Below are positions 1 through 29,492 of a stretch of 34,130 bases of DNA, in pieces (the first letter of the stretch is position 1; each line of letters starts with the position of its first letter). The notes beneath the pieces are model-generated. The model worked only from the letters and a program-made list of their open reading frames with translations. It did not search any database and was not told the origin of the DNA. The translations under genes and the position numbers were made by a program. The stretch is from a virus (taxonomy: Duplodnaviria > Heunggongvirae > Uroviricota > Caudoviricetes), in the IMG/VR virus record IMGVR_UViG_2859799533_000006; one strand, written 5' to 3'.

Positions 1-274
1 ATGAGCAGAAAAAACCAACGTTACTCTAAAGAGTTCAAAGCCGAAGCTGTCAGAACGGTTCTTGAAAATCAACTTTCGATCAGTGAAGGCGCTTCCCGAT
101 TATCCCTTCCTGAAGGCACTTTAGGACAATGGGTTACCGCCGCCAGAAAAGGGCTCGGTACTCCTGGTTCCCGCACGGTGGCTGAACTGGAATCTGAAAT
201 TCTGCAACTGCGTAAGGCGTTAAATGAAGCTCGCCTTGAGCGAGATATATTAAAAAAAGCAACAGCGTATTTTG
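1..274 (+). pseudogene. IS3-family transposase OrfA (N-terminal HTH part), 3' end replaced by the terminus of an IS66-family element
   Basis: ORF 1..309 (MSRKNQRYSKEFKAEAVRTV...LERDILKKATAYF) has IS3-family OrfA architecture; from nt 275 the frame runs into GTAAGCG, the typical start of an IS66-family terminal repeat. No IS3-type orfB follows. Confidence 0.55.
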
Positions 275-360
275 GTAAGCGTAAACTGACCGCCGTATGT
301 AGCCATTAAGCCTGTATTGGTAACGTAGGTGCCCACCTTTTCAACTAGTGGACACCTGTT

Positions 361-1157: not shown

Positions 1158-2750
1158 ATGAATCAAAAATACCTCATTCGCATTGCAGAACTGGAATGCC
1201 AGCTCCGTCAGAAAGACCAGCAACTGAGTCTGGTTGAAGAGACGGAGGCCTTCCTGCGCTCTGCACTGGCCCGCGCCGAAGAAAAGATCGAAGAAGATGA
1301 ACGGGAAATAGAACATCTGCGGGCTCAGATAGAAAAACTGCGCCGGATGCTGTTCGGTACCCGTTCTGAAAAACTGCGTCGTGAAGTTGAACAGGCTGAG
1401 GCCCTGCTGAAACAACGCGAACAGGACAGTGATCGTTACAGTGGGCGGGAAGACGATCCGCAGGTTCCCCGCCAGTTGCGACAGTCTCGTCATCGTCGCC
1501 CGTTACCGGAGCATCTGCCCCGCGAAATAAATCGCCTGGAGCCAGAAGAAAGCTGTTGCCCGGAGTGTGGCGGTGAGCTGGATTATCTGGGGGAAGTCAG
1601 CGCAGAACAACTGGAACTGGTGAGCAGCGCTCTGAAAGTGATCCGCACAGAACGGGTAAAAAAAGCCTGTACAAAATGTGACTGCATCGTTGAAGCACCG
1701 GCACCATCCCGTCCGATAGAGCGTGGTATCGCGGGCCCGGGGTTACTTGCCCGCGTGTTAACGGGAAAATACTGCGAACACCTGCCACTGTATCGTCAGA
1801 GTGAAATTTTTGCCCGTCAGGGTGTCGAACTGAGCCGTGCATTACTCTCCAACTGGGTTGACGCGTGCTGCCAGTTAATGACGCCGCTGAATGATGCTCT
1901 GTACCGTTATGTGATGAACAGCCGCAAAGTTCACACTGATGACACACCAGTAAAAGTGCTGGCACCGGGCAGGAAGAAGGCGAAAACAGGATATATCTGG
2001 ACGTATGTCCGGGATGACAGGAATGCCGGTTCGCCAGAGCCTCCGGCGGTCTGGTTCGCCTACTCACCGGACCATCAGGGTAAACATCCGGAGCAGCACC
2101 TTAGTCCCTTCCGGGGTATCCTGCAGGCAGATGCGTTTAATGGTTACGATCGGCTGTTCAGTGCCGAACGAGAAGGCGGCGCGTTGACGGAAGCAGGATG
2201 CTGGGCTCATGCGCGGCGCAAAGTCCACGATGTATATATCAGTACCAAAAGCGCGACAGCGGAAGAAGCCCTGAAACTAATCGGTGAGCTGTACGCCATC
2301 GAGCACGAAATACGCGGGTTGCCGGTGTCTGAACGCCTGGCGGTCAGGCAAATGCAGAGTAAACCGCTACTGACTTCCCTGTATAAGCTGATGCAGGAGA
2401 AAGAACACACGTTATCGAAAAAATGCCGTCTGAGAGATGCGTTCCGGTATATCAGGAAGCACTGGGTTGCGTTGTGCAACTTCAGTGATGATGGTCTGGC
2501 TGAGGCGGATAATAATGCCGCGGAAAGAGCGCTTCGTGCAGTCTGTCTCGGAAAGAAAAACTTTATGTTCTTCGGCAGCGATCACGGTGGAGAGCGTGGT
2601 GCGCTACTGTACGGGCTGATCGGCACCTGCCGACTGAACGGTATCGATCCGGAAGCGTATCTGCGCTATATCCTGAGCGTACTGCCGGAATGGCCTTCCA
2701 ACCGTGTTGACGAACTCCTGCCATGGAACGTAGCACTCACCAATAAATAA
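1158..2750 (+). CDS. IS66-family transposase TnpC
   Basis: 530-aa ORF with N-terminal coiled-coil/leucine zipper, CPECGGEL and CTKCDC zinc-finger motifs and a C-terminal catalytic region, as in IS66-family transposases. Confidence 0.9.
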   Translation: MNQKYLIRIAELECQLRQKDQQLSLVEETEAFLRSALARAEEKIEEDEREIEHLRAQIEKLRRMLFGTRSEKLRREVEQAEALLKQREQDSDRYSGREDDPQVPRQLRQSRHRRPLPEHLPREINRLEPEESCCPECGGELDYLGEVSAEQLELVSSALKVIRTERVKKACTKCDCIVEAPAPSRPIERGIAGPGLLARVLTGKYCEHLPLYRQSEIFARQGVELSRALLSNWVDACCQLMTPLNDALYRYVMNSRKVHTDDTPVKVLAPGRKKAKTGYIWTYVRDDRNAGSPEPPAVWFAYSPDHQGKHPEQHLSPFRGILQADAFNGYDRLFSAEREGGALTEAGCWAHARRKVHDVYISTKSATAEEALKLIGELYAIEHEIRGLPVSERLAVRQMQSKPLLTSLYKLMQEKEHTLSKKCRLRDAFRYIRKHWVALCNFSDDGLAEADNNAAERALRAVCLGKKNFMFFGSDHGGERGALLYGLIGTCRLNGIDPEAYLRYILSVLPEWPSNRVDELLPWNVALTNK

Positions 2751-2840
2751 GCGTCAATACGGTGCTCCGTTGACGCTGATATGACTTTCCGTGTCAAACC
2801 GGAATCTCTAATTTTGACGATTTTCTTTTTAGGTTTAATT

Positions 2841-3023
2841 CCCTGAGGGCGACGTAGCAGTAAATCCGACGGTGAATCACGCTGATATTCGCGGGTTGGA
2901 TACCGCATTACAGAGGTCCGTCATATGAGCCTGCCACTTTCTTACGTCGCGAATCAGCTTTGTTCCGCCGTCGCCAAGCGCTAACGTGGGTTACTCTTGT
3001 ACCGGGCTACGTCGCCTTCAGGG
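2841..3023. repeat. 18-bp inverted repeat (17/18 match) closing a ~147-nt segment between IS66 tnpC and the IS110-family recombinase gene
   Basis: ccctgagggcgacgtagc (2841..2858) versus gctacgtcgccttcaggg (3006..3023); the single mismatch is a G-U pair if transcribed from the plus strand and a C-A mismatch from the minus strand. Confidence 0.7.
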
Positions 3024-3041
3024 AACTGGTTATTCTCATTT

Positions 3042-4169
3042 TTATTTGTGACATTGTGGTTGTTGTGCGACAGACATTGCTATTCGGCCCATATCCCAGA
3101 TAAAACCCGCCAGCTCACGTGCAACAGCAACAATTGTAATATTGACATTCTTTCCTTTGGCCTGAAGTTTTCGATACCTCTTACAAAGCCTGAGTTGAGC
3201 ATCCCATGCTCTGTCAATGACGGGGCGGGGTAAATTTTCCTGCCTTTTTTGTATTGCCGGACTGATGCGTGCCGGATGACGGTAACTCCACGCTGCCTCG
3301 ACCAATAGCTTTCTGGCATAGCTGTTTCCGGCTTTGGTAATGCTGCCCTGATGTCTGCTTCCACCCGATGAATATTCTGATGGCGTGATACCAAACCATG
3401 ACATCAGTTGTCGTGGATGTTCAAAACGGGTCAGATCACCCAGTTCAGAAATTAATCCAACCGCAGTAATAAACTGAATCCCTCGCATGGCTTGCAGCGC
3501 CTCTACTACCGGATACAGCCTCCATTCGGTAACGGCCTCCTTCAGGGCGGATTCCAGCCGTTCACATTGTGCCTGCCGGTCTTCTATTGTACGACGGTGT
3601 TCGTCAAAAGCTAATTGTCGCCAGGGACTTTCGAATGAGTATTTGCTGAGCCAGCGTCGGTGTGCAGGGCCCCAATCTGCTCGCCCGACATAATGGACCC
3701 CATGAACCAGAAGAAACGATTTCAGACGTTGCCTTGCATGCCGTAAATCATCGCGGGCAGATGCCCATGCCCGGGCCAAATCCCGGAATGCCTCATCTTC
3801 AATGCCGGGTACGTAGACAGCAGAAAGATCTCCTGCACGCAGTGAACGCACAAGTCTGATGGCATCACGGCGATCGGTTTTAACCCGCTCCCCCGGTTTT
3901 TTCGGGATAAGTGAGGGGGCGCAGACCATGCAGTCAAAACCGGATTTCACCAGCCGACGATAAAGTCCATAACCACAGGGCCCCGCTTCATAAACGATAC
4001 TGACCTGCGATGACTTTGACCTGAGACGTTTACAAAGATTCTGAATATCAGTAGGTGATGTGCCAATTTTACCCATCAGTTCAACAGGTTCTGAATTGAT
4101 AGCATAAGCGACAGTAATCGATTCTTTGTGAACATCTAACCCGACGTACAATGTGTTATTGTTGTTCAT
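3042..4169 (-). CDS. IS110-family transposase/recombinase
   Basis: 375 aa from MNNNNTLYVGLDVHKESITV (IS110-family N-terminal motif) with GGAGG 6 nt upstream of the ATG at 4169; the ORF track extends 16 codons further upstream to 4217. Confidence 0.85.
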   Translation of the reverse strand: MNNNNTLYVGLDVHKESITVAYAINSEPVELMGKIGTSPTDIQNLCKRLRSKSSQVSIVYEAGPCGYGLYRRLVKSGFDCMVCAPSLIPKKPGERVKTDRRDAIRLVRSLRAGDLSAVYVPGIEDEAFRDLARAWASARDDLRHARQRLKSFLLVHGVHYVGRADWGPAHRRWLSKYSFESPWRQLAFDEHRRTIEDRQAQCERLESALKEAVTEWRLYPVVEALQAMRGIQFITAVGLISELGDLTRFEHPRQLMSWFGITPSEYSSGGSRHQGSITKAGNSYARKLLVEAAWSYRHPARISPAIQKRQENLPRPVIDRAWDAQLRLCKRYRKLQAKGKNVNITIVAVARELAGFIWDMGRIAMSVAQQPQCHK

Positions 4170-4384
4170 GCTGGCCTCCGTGGTGGAAATACCGGGGTGT
4201 AGCAACAGCTCACCCATGCGGCTCTGACAACGATGTTAACCCGCGTTAAATATCCCACGTTGGCCAGCATCTGTCTCACGGAAAGTCATACTGCCTTACT
4301 ATCGTATTGATTGATCTGCATCAAATTAACGTAAAAGCAACTTCAGATAATACAAATCAGCAACACTGAATATGGGGAAACATT

Positions 4385-4585
4385 ATGTCATCAAAGAACA
4401 GAACCCGCAGAACAACAACCCGCAACATCCGATTTCCAAACCAGATGATTGAACAAATTAACATCGCTCTTGATCTGAAAGGTTCAGGAAACTTTTCAGC
4501 GTGGGTTATTGAAGCCTGCAGGAGAAGGCTGGCAACAGATGCAACGCATCTGCGCCCGGCCAGCATGACAAATAACGAGAAATGA
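4385..4585 (+). CDS. small hypothetical protein, possibly a YlcI-like prophage protein
   Basis: 66-aa ORF MSSKNRTRRTTTRNIRFPNQMIEQINIALDLKG...; family assignment from memory only. Confidence 0.35.
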   Translation: MSSKNRTRRTTTRNIRFPNQMIEQINIALDLKGSGNFSAWVIEACRRRLATDATHLRPASMTNNEK

Positions 4586-4716
4586 ACGTTCGGTTACAGG
4601 AGCAGGTACCCACTGTCCTCCAACAATATTTCATCTTCATATCCGACGGAACAAGACTTACCCTGCCGGGATGTACAGAATAACAACAGAGTGATAATTA
4701 ATTTCTGATGAAATAA

Positions 4717-10869: not shown

Positions 10870-10903
10870 GGAGTTTACTCACATCTGACAAAATCAATAT
10901 AAA

Positions 10904-10925
10904 CAGCCCCTCCGGAGAGGGGCTG
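10904..10925 (-). terminator. rho-independent terminator (minus-strand transcripts)
   Basis: 9-bp GC-rich stem cagcccctc/gaggggctg with loop cgga; on the minus strand it is followed by a U-rich tract. Confidence 0.5.
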
Positions 10926-11158
10926 GAGAGTGGCGCTATGTGCCATTGCATGGTGCCGGGTGCCTCCCGGTGAATTCAGTACCAGCACCTGAATCTGCGA
11001 TTATCCCATATACCTACTCGCTGATTGCCCCTCCGCACAGGGGGATTCACCATGCCAGTTTCTTTTAACAAACTCCCCGCAAACCAGACAACAGTCAACC
11101 GCCTGAATTGTGAGACATTTAAAAAAAAGCCCGCAAAAGCGAGCCAGGGAAAATAAGT

Positions 11159-11235
11159 GTGGCGCGTTCTACTGTATTCGAACCAGTGACCGATTGCTTA
11201 GAAGGCAATTGCTCTGTCCGGCTGAGCTAACAACG
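11159..11235 (-). tRNA. argN: tRNA-Arg (anticodon UCU)
   Basis: Reverse complement gives a cloverleaf with anticodon loop CCTTCTAAG, T-loop TTCGAAT and CCA end; one acceptor-stem and one T-stem mismatch. Confidence 0.6.
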
Positions 11236-11251
11236 CAGGATACAGATAATG

Positions 11252-11326
11252 AACCGCCTTCGGGGACCCGAACTCCGCGCAACCAGCTTCGAAGGCTGGC
11301 GCTCTTTCCTGATGAGCTAATGGCGG
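11252..11326 (-). tRNA. tRNA-Arg-like (anticodon UCG), somewhat degenerate
   Basis: Hand-folded cloverleaf: D-arm gctc/gagc, anticodon stem ccagc/gctgg with loop CTTCGAA, T-loop TTCGGGT; acceptor 6/7 and T-stem 4/5 pairs; A58 replaced by G. Confidence 0.4.
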
Positions 11327-11333
11327 TATGTGA

Positions 11334-11409
11334 TGGTGGCCCTTGCTGGATTTGAACCAGCGACCTGGCGATTATGAGTCGCTCGCTCTCACCACTGAGC
11401 TAAAGGGCC
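11334..11409 (-). tRNA. ileZ: tRNA-Ile2 (anticodon CAU, ileZ-like)
   Basis: Reverse complement GGCCCTTTAGCTCAGTGGTGAGAGCGAGCGACTCATAATCGC...GGTTCAAATCCAGCAAGGGCCACCA closely resembles E. coli tRNA-Ile2; anticodon CAT. Confidence 0.8.
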
Positions 11410-20116: not shown

Positions 20117-20280
20117 AGTGACATCCTCATGTGCGAATTTTGAAAACTCACCACATGGGACGCCAATCACAGAGGTGGTGAGACGTACAGGGTTGGCGTA
20201 ACCGGTCGCACATGACCCCGGCGCATCTTTCGATGCCCCTGCACGCCCCACCATAATTTGGATGTGAGGAAACGTGCGCA

Positions 20281-20303
20281 AAAAAACCGCTGAAGCGCGG
20301 TTA
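20281..20303 (-). terminator. putative rho-independent terminator upstream of rha (minus strand)
   Basis: Minus-strand hairpin aaccgcg...cgcggtt followed by T7. Confidence 0.45.
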
Positions 20304-20521
20304 TGCGCATGTGCGAATTTCAGGACGCCAATCCCGGCACCCGCTTTATAAGGTGCGGAGACAGTGTAACGTCCCGAAATTGCAGAATCAATATTTGGTC
20401 TTGAAATGATCATATAGCTGCTGATATCTTTAGAACTGTTCTTGGATGTTTCGGAGCCGTTTTATGCGAAACAGCTCCCCGTTATTGATGTTGAGTGAGC
20501 CGGGTTACTCCCGGCTTTTTT

Positions 20522-23798: not shown

Positions 23799-24689
23799 TC
23801 AGGCTGCCAGATCATCGTTTCCGATGGAAGCATAATAAGCTTTTTCTGCTTCTGCCGGAGGAGTATGGCCCAGCCTTTCCAGCAATCGTCGATTGTTATA
23901 CCAGTCCACCCACGTGAGTGTGGCCAGTTCCACTTCTGCACGGTTTTTCCAGCTCTTACGGTGTATTACCTCCGCTTTGTAAAGACCATTGATGCTCTCC
24001 GCCATCGCGTTGTCATACGAGTCGCCTGTACTTCCTGTTGATGCCAGTAATCCGGCTTCCTTAAGCCGCTGTGTGTAGGCCAGCGATACATACTGAGAAC
24101 CTTTATCACTGTGATGGACCGTGCCGGACGGTCGACGGGCCCATAACGCCTGCTCCAGAGCATCCAGCACGAATGTCGTTTCCATGGACGATGAGACCCG
24201 CCACCCCACGATGTATCCGGCAAACACATCAATGATGAACGCCACATAGACGAAGCCCTGCCATGTGCTGACGTAAGTAAAATCAGCCACCCACAGCTGG
24301 TCAGGTCGTTCTGCCACGAACTGACGGTTTACGCGGTCGCCTGCGGCAACGGCTTTCCGGCTGATGGTCGTACGGACCTTTTTACCCCGGAGAACACCGG
24401 CAAGTCCCATAACCGCCATGAGACGTGCCACAGTGCATCTGGCCACTCTGATACCTTCCCGTAACAACTGACGCCAGACTTTACGCACACCGTATACCTG
24501 ATGATTCCCATCGTATACGCGCAGTATCTCTTTCTTCAGCCAGTCATCGCGCTGCGCACGGGCACTGCGTTTATCAGGATGATGTCGCTGTTGCTGACAG
24601 TGGTAATACGTTGACGGGGCAATATGCAGTTCACTGCATACCGGTCCGACCCCGTACAGCTTACGCAGCTTATCCAGCAGTGGCATCAC
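23799..24689 (-). CDS. IS629 transposase OrfB (DDE integrase domain)
   Basis: 296-aa ORF with the IS3-family catalytic region; overlaps orfA in the arrangement for a -1 frameshift fusion. Confidence 0.9.
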
Positions 24690-25012
24690 TTTTTCCAGAG
24701 GCGGTCGAACTCCGCCTTCGCAAAATAAGCGGAAGCCTGGCGAAGGATATCGTTACTGCGGCGCAGTTCACGATTTTCACGCTCCAGCTCTTTCAGACGC
24801 TGACGTTCAGCGGTGGTGAGCCCTCCATCACCGCCCCCGGTATCCCGCTCATGCTGGCGAACCCAGACACGCAGAGTCTCCGGCGTACAGCCAATCTTTG
24901 GAGCAATGGAACAAATTGTCGCCCATTGTGAGTCATATTCGCCCTGACTTTCCAGAACCATACGGACTGCCCGTTGACGGACTTCGGGGGAAAAACGAGT
25001 ATTTTTAGTCAT
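24686..25012 (-). CDS. IS629 transposase OrfA
   Basis: 108-aa HTH/leucine-zipper protein [22 protein letters not shown]... Confidence 0.9.
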
Positions 25013-28278: not shown

Positions 28279-29169
28279 TCAGGCTGCCAGATCATCGTTT
28301 CCGATGGAAGCATAATAAGCTTTTTCTGCTTCTGCCGGAGGAGTATGGCCCAGCCTTTCCAGCAATCGTCGATTGTTATACCAGTCCACCCACGTGAGTG
28401 TGGCCAGTTCCACTTCTGCACAGTTTTTCCAGCTCTTACGGTGTATTACCTCCGCTTTGTAAAGACCATTGATGCTCTCCGCCATCGCGTTGTCATACGA
28501 GTCGCCTGTACTTCCTGTTGATGCCAGTAATCCGGCTTCCTTAAGCCGCTGTGTGTAGGCCAGCGATACATACTGAGAACCTTTATCACTGTGATGGACC
28601 GTGCCGGACGGTCGACGGGCCCATAACGCCTGCTCCAGAGCATCCAGCACGAATGTCGTTTCCATGGACGATGAGACCCGCCACCCCACGATGTATCCGG
28701 CAAACACATCAATGATGAACGCCACATAGACGAAGCCCTGCCATGTGCTGACGTAAGTAAAATCAGCCACCCACAGCTGGTCAGGTCGTTCTGCCACGAA
28801 CTGACGGTTTACGCGGTCGCCTGCGGCAACGGCTTTCCGGCTGATGGTCGTACGGACCTTTTTACCCCGGAGAACACCGGCAAGTCCCATAACCGCCATG
28901 AGACGTGCCACAGTGCATCTGGCCACTCTGATACCTTCCCGTAACAACTGACGCCAGACTTTACGCACACCGTATACCTGATGATTCCCATCGTATACGC
29001 GCAGTATCTCTTTCTTCAGCCAGTCATCGCGCTGCGCACGGGCACTGCGTTTATCAGGATGATGTCGCTGTTGCTGACAGTGGTAATACGTTGACGGGGC
29101 AATATGCAGTTCACTGCATACCGGTCCGACCCCGTACAGCTTACGCAGCTTATCCAGCAGTGGCATCAC
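28279..29169 (-). CDS. IS629 transposase OrfB
   Basis: Identical to the copy 1 OrfB except one residue (Cys for Arg in SWKNCAEVE). Confidence 0.9.
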
Positions 29170-29492
29170 TTTTTCCAGAGGCGGTCGAACTCCGCCTTCG
29201 CAAAATAAGCGGAAGCCTGGCGAAGGATATCGTTACTGCGGCGCAGTTCACGATTTTCACGCTCCAGCTCTTTCAGACGCTGACGTTCAGCGGTGGTGAG
29301 CCCTCCATCACCGCCCCCGGTATCCCGCTCATGCTGGCGAACCCAGACACGCAGAGTCTCCGGCGTACAGCCAATCTTTGGAGCAATGGAACAAATTGTC
29401 GCCCATTGTGAGTCATATTCGCCCTGACTTTCCAGAACCATACGGACTGCCCGTTGACGGACTTCGGGGGAAAAACGAGTATTTTTAGTCAT
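29166..29492 (-). CDS. IS629 transposase OrfA
   Basis: Identical to copy 1 OrfA. Confidence 0.9.

What the first reader, a model, noticed from the sequence alone, without database searches (positions are those of the whole stretch)
2751..4384. IS110-family recombinase flanked by structured non-coding DNA: candidate bridge (guide) RNA locus
The recombinase gene (3042..4169) has the IS110-family N-terminal motif. IS110-family elements are known to encode a structured non-coding RNA in a non-coding end that base-pairs with target and donor DNA. Here there are about 290 bp downstream (2751..3041) and about 215 bp upstream (4170..4384) of the gene, and the downstream region holds an 18-bp near-perfect inverted repeat enclosing about 147 nt. 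The element also abuts the right end of the IS66-family element, consistent with IS110-family targeting of other IS ends.
Basis: partly seen in the sequence, partly recalled or inferred. Interest (0 to 1): 0.6.

Follow-up and report, generated by a model that had tools for sequence, protein, structure and literature searches.

The report
ISSso6 insertion sequence with guide RNA
This is an intact copy of the known insertion sequence ISSso6, whose downstream non-coding end encodes a bridge/seek-type guide RNA that matches the tip of the neighbouring IS66-family element, where the copy sits; it is a clear example of a known mechanism, not a new one.

Summary
Window 2778-4296 is an intact copy of ISSso6 (IS110 family, IS1111 group). 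Durrant et al. 2024 already list it as having a predicted bridge RNA in its right end.

The RNA lies only in the flank downstream of the gene (window 2837-3027, minus strand). A covariance model built only from Burkholderiaceae relatives hits it at 200.9 bits.

Two short segments in one internal loop covary with the DNA flanking each family member. G1 (2977-2985) is the reverse complement of the core plus the right flank. G2 (2941-2945) is identical to the left flank plus the core. Neither association was reached in 20000 permutations.

Copies and two empty sites define the target as GTA-AG-CGYYAAC, which is the tip of the IS66-family terminal repeat. The copy therefore sits inside that repeat, not merely next to it.

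The upstream flank is a 125-nt 5' UTR followed by prophage DNA, not a guide RNA. Transcription, RNA-protein binding and the donor-binding half remain inferred or only partly decoded. Interest is low to moderate.

The parts
2778..4296 (-). ISSso6 proper with one copy of the 2-bp core (1519 bp). The core CT (AG in gene orientation) is present at 2776-2777 and at 4295-4296.
   Evidence: Constant part shared by more than 20 copies in different contexts. Two empty sites (L009, L010) show ...GCG-CT-TAC... uninterrupted.
3042..4169 (-). Recombinase/transposase gene, 375 aa, with a DEDD RuvC-like N-terminal domain and a C-terminal Tnp domain carrying the SG motif (GITPSEYSSGG).
   Evidence: Pfam and NCBIfam hits. 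Distant match to the IS621 transposase structure 8wt6 (E 2e-5), with query YSSGGS aligned to IS621 YESGSS. Identical protein in many assemblies.
2837..3027 (-). Predicted bridge/seek RNA, about 190 nt: a long outer stem enclosing a three-way junction.
   Evidence: Model R1, built without the window sequence, scores 200.9 bits (E 4e-52) on the minus strand and 32.6 bits on the plus strand. In the consensus structure 98.5% of cells are paired, 8 pairs show compensatory changes, and 0 of 500 shuffles reach this.
2839..2858 (-). Its partner is 3006-3025.
3006..3025 (-). 5' arm of the RNA's outer stem.
2977..2985 (-). Guide G1 (RNA GUUAGCGCU), on the 5' strand of the target-binding internal loop. 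It is complementary to the core plus the right flank in gene orientation (AG-CGCTAAC, with the IS66 repeat reading AG-CGTCAAC). It corresponds to the long left-target guide of IS621 if the site is read with a CT core.
   Evidence: Across 31 distinct guide/flank combinations, own-flank pairing averages 6.26 of 9 against 3.28 for other members' flanks, with 0 of 20000 permutations reaching this. Positions 1-7 are informative. Mutual information is up to 1.86 bits.
2941..2945 (-). Guide G2 (RNA GUAAG), on the 3' strand of the same loop. It is identical to the left flank plus core (GTA-AG), so it pairs with the bottom strand. It corresponds to the short right-target guide of IS621.
   Evidence: For the three bases next to the core, own versus other flanks match at 0.88/0.92/0.67 against 0.50/0.39/0.29, with 0 of 20000 permutations reaching this. 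The closing stem shows a compensatory change, CCGC/GCGG to CCAC/GUGG.
2879..2888 (-). AUAUCAG (2882-2888) is identical to the right-end tip plus core, so it is a candidate donor guide. The following CGU (2879-2881) matches the target base(s) next to the core, like the IS621 'handshake' guide.
   Evidence: Direct reading of the sequence. The first base after CAG follows the first flank base in 19 of 21 family members, by hand count from the alignment, with mutual information 0.9 bit. The handshake concept is from PMC11208158.
2780..2793 (.). Subterminal inverted repeat, right-end copy (TATGACTTTCCGTG on the plus strand).
   Evidence: 14 of 14 complementary to 4277-4290. Conserved across the family.
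4277..4290 (.). Subterminal inverted repeat, left-end copy.
4170..4294 (-). Left end, which is the 5' UTR of the recombinase gene. The stem 4262-4268 / 4170-4176 pairs GCUGGCC with GGCCAGC next to the GGAGG ribosome-binding site and the AUG. It is not a guide RNA.
   Evidence: Fold z = -2.2 only. The sequence is conserved in the family but shows no covariation with flanks or with G1. No R1 hit.
2751..2777 (+). Inner part of the right terminal inverted repeat of the IS66-family element (...CGGTGCTCCGTTGACG-CT). This is the long half of the ISSso6 target.
   Evidence: IS66-family matches in E. coli genomes end at 2777/2785. Reading of the sequence.
4297..4299 (+). TAC, the last 3 bp of the IS66-family repeat tip (GTA in gene orientation), separated from the rest of the repeat by ISSso6. 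This is the short half of the target.
   Evidence: Empty sites. Two copies have ATA here instead of GTA, showing that these bases are flank and not IS.
2792..2797 (-). TTGACA, conserved in the family, 14 nt from the right-end tip. It is a candidate -35 box of a promoter that would form when the ends are joined in a circle (TTGACA-17 nt-CAGTAT).
   Evidence: Sequence and family alignment. This is inference by analogy with ISEc11/ISEc21 (PMC11187229) and was not tested.

Best explanation
Window 2778-4296 is an intact copy of ISSso6, an IS1111-group member of the IS110 family, read on the minus strand.

Layout: a 125-nt left end serves as the 5' UTR. It is followed by a 375-aa DEDD/Ser recombinase gene and a 264-nt right end.

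RNA: the right end encodes an RNA of about 190 nt (2837-3027). A long outer stem encloses an internal loop that carries two guides. [quoted passage not shown] Target: together the guides specify about 10 bp, GTA-AG-CGYYA(AC). A second region carries AUAUCAG, which equals the right-end tip plus core. It is followed by target-matching bases, as in the handshake guide of IS621.

Inferred mechanism: the recombinase loaded with this RNA aligns the circularised element's joined ends with the target. It then exchanges strands at the 2-bp core. This inserts the element without any duplication other than the core.

Why it sits here: the tip of IS66-family terminal repeats (GTAAGCGTCAACGG) matches the guides. 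That is why this copy sits 5 bp inside the right repeat of the neighbouring IS66-family element.

Shown here: element identity and ends, the target, the conserved fold, and guide-target covariation. Inferred: that the RNA is made, is bound by the recombinase and is required, and how the donor ends are read.
For: Identity:
- RefSeq annotates identical copies as 'IS110-like element ISSso6 family transposase'.
- The ISfinder ISSso6 protein printed in the supplement of PMC11187229 matches the window protein over the stretch shown.

Ends and target:
- More than 20 copies share exactly 2778-4296 plus flanking CT...CT-TAC.
- Empty sites L009 and L010 read ...CAGCG-CT-TACATG... and ...TTAGCG-CT-TACAGC....

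IS1111-type architecture:
- A 14-bp perfect subterminal repeat, a short left end and a long right end.

RNA:
- 80 related loci (71-81% aa identity, Burkholderiaceae) have the same layout.
- A model built from 43 of them, without the window, hits 2837-3027 on the minus strand at 200.9 bits, and hits nothing in the upstream flank.
- The structure has 98.5% of cells paired, 8 pairs with compensatory changes and 0 of 500 shuffles reaching this.
- Many G-U pairs exist only on the gene-sense strand (cols 2/205, 18/190, 42/110, 162/174).

Guides:
- G1 and G2 are the variable islands in an otherwise 81% identical RNA, and they follow each member's own flanks.
- Neither association was reached in 20000 permutations. 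Mutual information reaches 1.86 bits.
- The order, with the top-strand match 5' of the bottom-strand match, is the one reported for IS1111-family seekRNAs (PMC11187229).

Prior prediction:
- Durrant et al. list ISSso6 with a predicted bridge RNA in the right end.
Against: - There are no expression data. Transcription, processing, RNA ends and recombinase binding are all untested.
- No sigma-70-like promoter was found just upstream of the RNA, so it would have to come from read-through or processing of the recombinase mRNA, or from a junction promoter.
- The IS66 repeat in this window matches G1 imperfectly: AGCGTCAAC against the ideal AGCGCTAAC, giving one G:T wobble and one A:C mismatch.
- One group of copies (L006-L008) sits at GTAAG|TGAATG, a poor G1 match.
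- The guide for the left-end tip was not found, and the donor ends are too conserved to give covariation.
- Rfam 15 has no matching family, so there is no independent curated model.
Confidence: 0.88

Rival explanations
1. The conserved right end acts as DNA, not RNA. It would be a protein-binding or hairpin-forming transposon end, and the matches to the flanks would be by-products of insertion such as target capture or duplication.
For: The region is an inverted repeat, so both strands fold well (z -4.2 and -4.9). No transcript evidence is available here.
Against: - G1 lies about 200 nt inside the element and is the reverse complement of the flank. G2 is a direct copy of the other flank. Both sit in one internal loop closed by a stem with compensatory changes.
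- Frequent G-U pairs fit only the gene-sense strand.
- The model scores 200.9 bits on the minus strand against 32.6 on the plus strand.
- Related elements were shown experimentally to use such an RNA (PMC11187229, PMC11208160).
Confidence: 0.04
2. The guide RNA is encoded in the upstream flank (4170-4384), as in IS110-group elements such as IS621, and the downstream structure is a terminator or stabiliser.
For: The upstream flank is conserved in the family and contains a stem.
Against: - Only 4170-4296 belongs to the element.
- Its fold is marginal (z -2.2, and 8 of 200 shuffles fold as well).
- It shows no covariation with the flanks.
- Its stem pairs with the ribosome-binding region, as expected for a 5' UTR.
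- All the covariation with the target maps to the downstream RNA.
Confidence: 0.03
3. This copy is an inactive relic. Its position next to the IS66-family element reflects IS-rich junk DNA or recombination between IS copies, not guided insertion.
For: The surrounding region is rearranged. The IS66-family element lacks a matching 8-bp duplication, with a truncated IS3-family gene on its left.
Against: - The gene is intact and identical to the protein found in many assemblies. Up to 13-16 places match per genome, which implies recent activity.
- Both junctions are exactly those expected for insertion into GTAAG|CGTCAACGG. The same kind of repeat tip is occupied independently in other genomes (L002, L003, L018).
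Confidence: 0.05

Closest known systems
IS1111-group seekRNA elements (ISEc11, ISPa11, ISKpn4, ISPst6; Siddiquee et al. 2024, PMC11187229)
   Same: Subterminal inverted repeats, a short left end and a long non-coding region downstream of the gene. The RNA has a top-strand-complementary segment 5' of a bottom-strand-complementary segment, and the two overlap at the insertion point. Insertion is site-specific with no real duplication.
   Different: The recombinase is longer (375 aa against the 330-350 aa given for the tight IS1111 cluster) and only about 22% identical to most listed family members. The target is different. The conserved RNA is about 190 nt, against the 82-96 nt reported for the predominant short seekRNAs. 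No experiments exist for ISSso6.
IS621 bridge RNA (Durrant et al. 2024, PMC11208160; Hiraizumi et al. 2024, PMC11208158)
   Same: An internal loop has a long guide on its 5' strand (7 nt including the core here; 9 in IS621) and a short guide on its 3' strand (5 nt including the core). Both guides include a 2-bp core, which reads CT when the site is oriented by the guides. A donor guide is followed by target-matching 'handshake' bases. The recombinase is a DEDD plus Ser enzyme.
   Different: The RNA lies downstream of the gene, in the right end. Relative to the polarity of the recombination site, the gene-plus-RNA cassette is inverted. The subterminal repeat is 14 bp rather than 2-3 bp. The recombinase is only remotely similar (E 2e-5 over 92 aa). 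The second donor guide was not identified here.
IS4321/IS5075 (IS1111 group; Partridge & Hall 2003, cited in PMC11208160) and ISEc21 (PMC11187229)
   Same: These IS110-family elements have natural targets inside other mobile elements: the terminal repeats of Tn21-family transposons, and the DDE codons of IS3-family transposases.
   Different: ISSso6 is aimed at the tip of IS66-family terminal repeats (GTAAG|CG...). I did not find this stated in the papers I could search.

Membership tests
IS110 family, IS1111 group (ISfinder definition) | DEDD (RuvC-like) N-terminal catalytic domain | tested here: met
   PF01548 at 2.6e-11 and NF033542 at 273.7 bits against a cut-off of 140. The motifs LDVHK, YEAG and DRRDA are visible in the translation.
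IS110 family, IS1111 group (ISfinder definition) | C-terminal Tnp domain with the G(L)-P----S/T-G motif | tested here: met
   PF02371 at 8.2e-24. GITPSEYSSGG is present, and query YSSGGS aligns with IS621 YESGSS, the stretch I take to contain the catalytic serine, in 8wt6.
IS110 family, IS1111 group (ISfinder definition) | Subterminal inverted repeats of 7-17 bp with short terminal extensions | tested here: met
   14 of 14 bp at 2780-2793 / 4277-4290. The extensions beyond the repeats are 2 and 4 nt plus the core.
IS110 family, IS1111 group (ISfinder definition) | Long non-coding region downstream of the gene and a short one upstream | tested here: met
   264 nt (2778-3041) against 125 nt (4170-4294). 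The same holds in 80 relatives.
IS110 family, IS1111 group (ISfinder definition) | Sequence-specific insertion without target duplication | tested here: met
   About a dozen distinct E. coli sites share GTA-AG-CG... Two empty sites show that only the 2-bp core is repeated.
ISSso6 (the named element) | Same element as the ISfinder entry | tested here: met
   RefSeq product name on 99.9% identical copies. The ISfinder ISSso6 protein in the supplement of PMC11187229 matches over the roughly 100 aa shown. The ISfinder DNA record itself was not available.
Bridge RNA / seekRNA | Conserved structured RNA gene in a non-coding end | tested here: met
   R1 hit of 200.9 bits. 8 pairs show compensatory changes, 98.5% of cells are paired and 0 of 500 shuffles reach this. 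This is computational evidence only.
Bridge RNA / seekRNA | Two guide segments in one loop that pair with opposite strands of the target and overlap at the core | tested here: met
   G1 and G2 covary with each member's own flanks, with 0 of 20000 permutations reaching this for either guide.
Bridge RNA / seekRNA | Second loop with two guides for the joined element ends (donor) | tested here: inconclusive
   AUAUCAG equals the right-end tip plus core, and a handshake-like base follows it. No guide for the left-end tip was found, and the ends are nearly invariant, so there is no covariation to test.
Bridge RNA / seekRNA | RNA is expressed, binds the recombinase and is required for transposition; changing the guides retargets the element | not testable with these tools
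   Needs RNA-seq, RNP purification and transposition assays.
Rfam families | Match to a curated covariance model | tested here: not met
   No hit at the gathering threshold in the window. At E<=10 the only hit in 2600-4700 was a chance match to a eukaryotic lncRNA model.

The most novel reading that the evidence does not exclude
The ISSso6 clade may use a hybrid recognition mode that differs from IS621. RNA guides would read the target and only one side of the donor (right-end tip plus handshake bases). The 14-bp subterminal repeats and the left-end tip would be read by the protein. The gene-plus-RNA cassette would be inverted relative to the polarity of the recombination site.

In addition, the DNA that encodes the guides mimics target and donor, and it appears to be used as a recombination site. 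That would explain the partial tandem duplications of the right end in L016, L017 and L095. Such events could be a route by which guide modules are duplicated or exchanged.
Probability: 0.2. Interest if true: 0.5.

Novelty: already known. Interest (0 to 1): 0.3.

Why it matters
It shows that a reader working from raw sequence can recognise a real RNA-guided recombinase locus.

The follow-up gives an explicit, testable decoding for one catalogued but uncharacterised element:
- which bases are the guides;
- what roughly 10-bp site they specify;
- that the natural prey is the tip of IS66-family terminal repeats, making this a mobile element aimed at another mobile element.

The 80-member clade with naturally reprogrammed guides is a ready-made comparative data set for IS1111-type bridge RNAs, which are less studied than IS621. 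It does not change current understanding of the mechanism.

Tried and rejected
- Rfam scans, at the gathering threshold on the whole window and at E<=10 on 2600-4700, gave nothing relevant.
- Exact k-mer matching between the non-coding regions and the target or donor was too crude and mostly found the subterminal repeats. The guides only became clear from the family alignment.
- I first suspected that CAUAUGAC / GGCAG (2922-2935 region) were donor guides. I rejected this because GGCAGGCUCA is invariant while the left-end tip varies (G/T/A). The following hexamer varies without tracking the flanks, the left end or the right end.
- UACUGC (2857-2862) as a left-end guide is unproven. It lies at the base of the outer stem and does not change when the left-end tip changes.
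- A 14-nt complementarity between the left end and the G1 region (repeat I6) suggested 5' UTR-guide pairing. The left-end sequence does not covary with G1 in the family, and the compensatory change of the loop-closing stem is internal to the RNA, so I rejected it.
- Hits H65-H70, which match only from query base 204, turned out to be truncated, frameshifted relics next to IS3 remnants and gave no information.
- The empty-site search for the CaiF/porin insertion (L006) found no uninterrupted site.
- The promoter scan found no convincing promoter for the RNA.
Full report
**1. What is there**

The minus-strand ORF 3042..4169 encodes a 375-aa protein. It carries the N-terminal DEDD_Tnp_IS110 domain (PF01548, 2.6e-11) and the C-terminal Transposase_20 domain (PF02371, 8.2e-24). 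It also passes the NCBIfam equivalog 'IS110 family RNA-guided transposase' at 273.7 bits against a cut-off of 140. It is remotely similar to the solved IS621 and ISCro4 recombinases (E 2e-5). The query's YSSGGS aligns with IS621's YESGSS, the stretch I take to contain the catalytic serine.

To the left lies an IS66-family tnpC (1158..2750). To the right lies a YlcI/YnfO-type prophage gene (4385..4585). Its arms are 2839-2858 and 3006-3025, 20 nt, 19/20 complementary, with 147 nt between them. The downstream flank folds far better than shuffled sequence (z -4.2).

**2. Identity and exact ends**

Megablast against complete E. coli genomes finds 51 records with near full-length copies, annotated 'IS110-like element ISSso6 family transposase'. 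The ISfinder ISSso6 protein printed in the supplement of Siddiquee et al. matches the window protein over the stretch shown. The identical protein is encoded in many assemblies, several times per genome.

Comparing copies in different contexts shows a constant block. On the window plus strand it reads ...CT|GATATGACTTTCCGTG ... CACGGAAAGTCATACTGC|CT-TAC. Two uninterrupted sites, in a sopA pseudogene and upstream of nhaA, read ...CAGCG-CT-TACATG... and ...TTAGCG-CT-TACAGC....

The element with one core copy is therefore 2778-4296 (1519 bp). The dinucleotide CT (AG in gene orientation) is present on both sides, and TAC at 4297-4299 is target, not IS. Two copies with ATA instead of GTA at that place confirm this.

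A perfect 14-bp subterminal inverted repeat (2780-2793 / 4277-4290), a short left end (125 nt) and a long right end (264 nt) give the IS1111-group architecture.

**3. The target**

In gene orientation, about a dozen distinct E. coli sites read GTA-AG-CG(C/T)(C/T)AAC... The IS66-family terminal repeat begins GTAAGCGTCAACGGAGCACCG. In the window this repeat is split. Its inner part ends at 2777 and its last three bases are at 4297-4299.

So ISSso6 sits inside the right repeat of the IS66-family element, 5 bp from its tip. Other genomes have independent insertions in variant IS66 tips (L002, L003), and also in the left repeat of this kind of element (L018). The equivalent left tip in the window (275-286, GTAAGCGTAAAC) is unoccupied.

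**4. A family with naturally different guides**

A scan of one genome per species returned 80 loci encoding recombinases 71-81% identical to ISSso6. All are in Burkholderiaceae. They share the subterminal repeat, the end lengths and the junction form nnn-AG|KCAGTATGAC...GTCATATC|AR-nnn.

Their downstream regions align over about 190 nt at 81% mean column identity. The main variable stretches are two short islands, together with the inner hairpin between them and a hexamer discussed in section 5.
- **Island G1** follows the conserved AACCCGCG. In each member it is the reverse complement of that member's core plus right flank.
- **Island G2** precedes AUAGCGGCAGGCUCA. It is identical to that member's left flank plus AG.

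I tested this by permutation on 31 distinct G1/flank combinations and 24 distinct G2/flank combinations.

| Guide | Own flank | Other members' flanks | Permutations reaching observed |
|---|---|---|---|
| G1, paired positions of 9 | 6.26 | 3.28 | 0 of 20000 |
| G2, identity at the 3 bases next to the core | 0.88 / 0.92 / 0.67 | 0.50 / 0.39 / 0.29 | 0 of 20000 |

For G1 the signal is confined to the core and the next five bases. An unbiased mutual-information scan of all RNA columns against the end and flank positions recovers exactly these columns, with a top value of 1.86 bits.

In ISSso6, G1 is GUUAGCGCU (window 2977-2985) and G2 is GUAAG (2941-2945). G1 is perfectly complementary to the nhaA-proximal site AGCGCTAAC. 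It pairs with the IS66 tip AGCGTCAAC with one G:T wobble and one mismatch.

**5. Structure**

RNAalifold on 44 sequences gives the following:
- an arm in which a stem (CCGC/GCGG) closes an internal loop holding G1 on the 5' strand and G2 on the 3' strand, with a hairpin between them;
- a small invariant hairpin (GCGG...CCGC), followed by AUAUCAG.

Overall, 98.5% of cells are paired. Eight pairs show compensatory changes, against 3.7 +/- 1.2 in shuffles (0 of 500 reach it). Slid controls drop to 31-42% paired.

The loop-closing stem changes from CCGC/GCGG to CCAC/GUGG in ISSso6 and three relatives. Frequent G-U pairs fit only the gene-sense strand.

A covariance model built from the 43 relatives alone hits window 2837-3027 on the minus strand at 200.9 bits (E 4e-52). 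It scores 32.6 bits on the other strand and hits nothing in the upstream flank.

**6. Comparison with the known mechanism**

[quoted passage not shown] A second loop reads the donor in the same way (PMC11208160). 'Handshake' bases next to the core-pairing part of each loop pair with the other DNA after strand exchange (PMC11208158).

Siddiquee et al. report that in IS1111-family seekRNAs the top-strand match lies 5' of the bottom-strand match, the reverse of the IS110 type. ISSso6 fits this. G1 (top-strand match) is 5' of G2 (bottom-strand match).

If the site is oriented by the guides, the core reads CT as in IS621. G1 is then the long 'left target guide' and G2 the short 'right target guide'. 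The gene-plus-RNA cassette is inverted relative to that polarity.

AUAUCAG (2882-2888) equals the right-end tip plus core. The next base follows the first flank base in 19 of 21 members by hand count, with mutual information 0.9 bit. This is what a donor guide followed by a handshake guide would look like.

I could not find the guide for the left-end tip, which varies G/T/A with no corresponding change in the RNA. The variable hexamer at 2922-2927 also remains unexplained.

**7. The upstream flank**

Only 4170-4296 belongs to the element. It is conserved in the family. Its main stem pairs GCUGGCC with GGCCAGC, next to the GGAGG ribosome-binding site and the start codon. This suggests translational control. 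It shows no covariation with the flanks or with G1. The rest, 4297-4384, is the IS66 tip and prophage DNA.

**8. What is shown and what is inferred**

- **Shown computationally:** element identity, exact ends, target consensus, a conserved strand-specific fold, and guide-target covariation.
- **Inferred from established work on ISEc11, ISPa11, ISKpn4, ISEc21 and IS621:** the RNA is made, loads onto the recombinase, bridges the circular donor junction and the target, and directs strand exchange at the core.

No convincing promoter precedes the RNA. A conserved TTGACA 14 nt from the right-end tip would give TTGACA-17-CAGTAT after circle formation, but this is untested.

**9. Novelty**

ISSso6 is an ISfinder element. 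Durrant et al. already list it as IS1111-group with the predicted bridge RNA in the right end. The kind of system and its membership are therefore known.

What I did not find in the searchable literature is the explicit decoding of its guides, its preference for IS66-family repeat tips, and the Burkholderiaceae clade with naturally reprogrammed guides. These are useful details, not a new principle.

**Verdict:** Novelty is 'already known', and interest is low to moderate.

Noticed in passing
window 275-286 (+): GTAAG|CGTAAAC is the tip of the left terminal repeat of the same IS66-family element. It is an unoccupied ISSso6-type site. The equivalent site is occupied by ISSso6 in another E. coli genome (L018).
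   Followed up: partly
window 1-274, 267-274 and 4300-4307: The IS66-family element has no matching 8-bp target duplication (GTATTTTG against TATCGTAT). Its left neighbour is a truncated IS3-family orfA and its right neighbour is prophage DNA, so the region has been rearranged, probably by recombination between IS copies.
   Followed up: no
L016:2080-2300, L017:2080-2260, L095 (end of the non-coding region): Some copies carry a partial tandem duplication of the right end. The normal tip ...CATATCAG is joined to an internal point just after G1's core (GTTAG|CGCTTGG), just after G2 (GAAAG|TGGCAGG), or after the internal ATATCAG. The guide-coding DNA mimics target and donor and seems to be used as a recombination site.
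   Followed up: partly
L023-L102: All 80 closest relatives of the ISSso6 recombinase (71-81% aa identity) in the one-genome-per-species collection are from Burkholderiaceae (Paraburkholderia, Caballeronia, Cupriavidus). This suggests that the enterobacterial element came from, or is shared with, that lineage.
   Followed up: no
window 4170-4176 with 4262-4268 (minus strand): A conserved 5' UTR stem pairs GCUGGCC with GGCCAGC immediately next to the GGAGG ribosome-binding site and the AUG of the recombinase gene. This may be translational repression of read-through transcripts.
   Followed up: partly
window 2792-2797 (minus strand): TTGACA, conserved throughout the family, lies 14 nt from the right-end tip. 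Joining the ends in a circle would create TTGACA-17 nt-CAGTAT, a candidate junction promoter like those reported for ISEc11 and ISEc21.
   Followed up: no
L023-L102 junctions: In the family, the dinucleotide at the left junction is AG, matching the end of G2, in all but two atypical loci. The dinucleotide at the right junction is AA, AG or GG and follows the 3' end of G1 (UU, CU or CC). The two core copies therefore need not be identical.
   Followed up: partly
L006-L008 (and hits H57-H62): One group of ISSso6 copies (about 98.4% identical, with a frameshifted gene) sits between a CaiF/GrlA regulator gene and a porin gene at GTAAG|TGAATG. This is a poor match to G1, and no empty site was found. 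It may be an off-target or an old insertion.
   Followed up: partly
window 10895-11409, 20171-20356, 24615-24731, 29095-29211: Other Rfam hits in the window are STnc100, three tRNAs, C4 antisense RNA, isrK, and two identical ALIL pseudoknots (IS3-family frameshift elements). They fit a lambdoid prophage carrying several IS copies.
   Followed up: no
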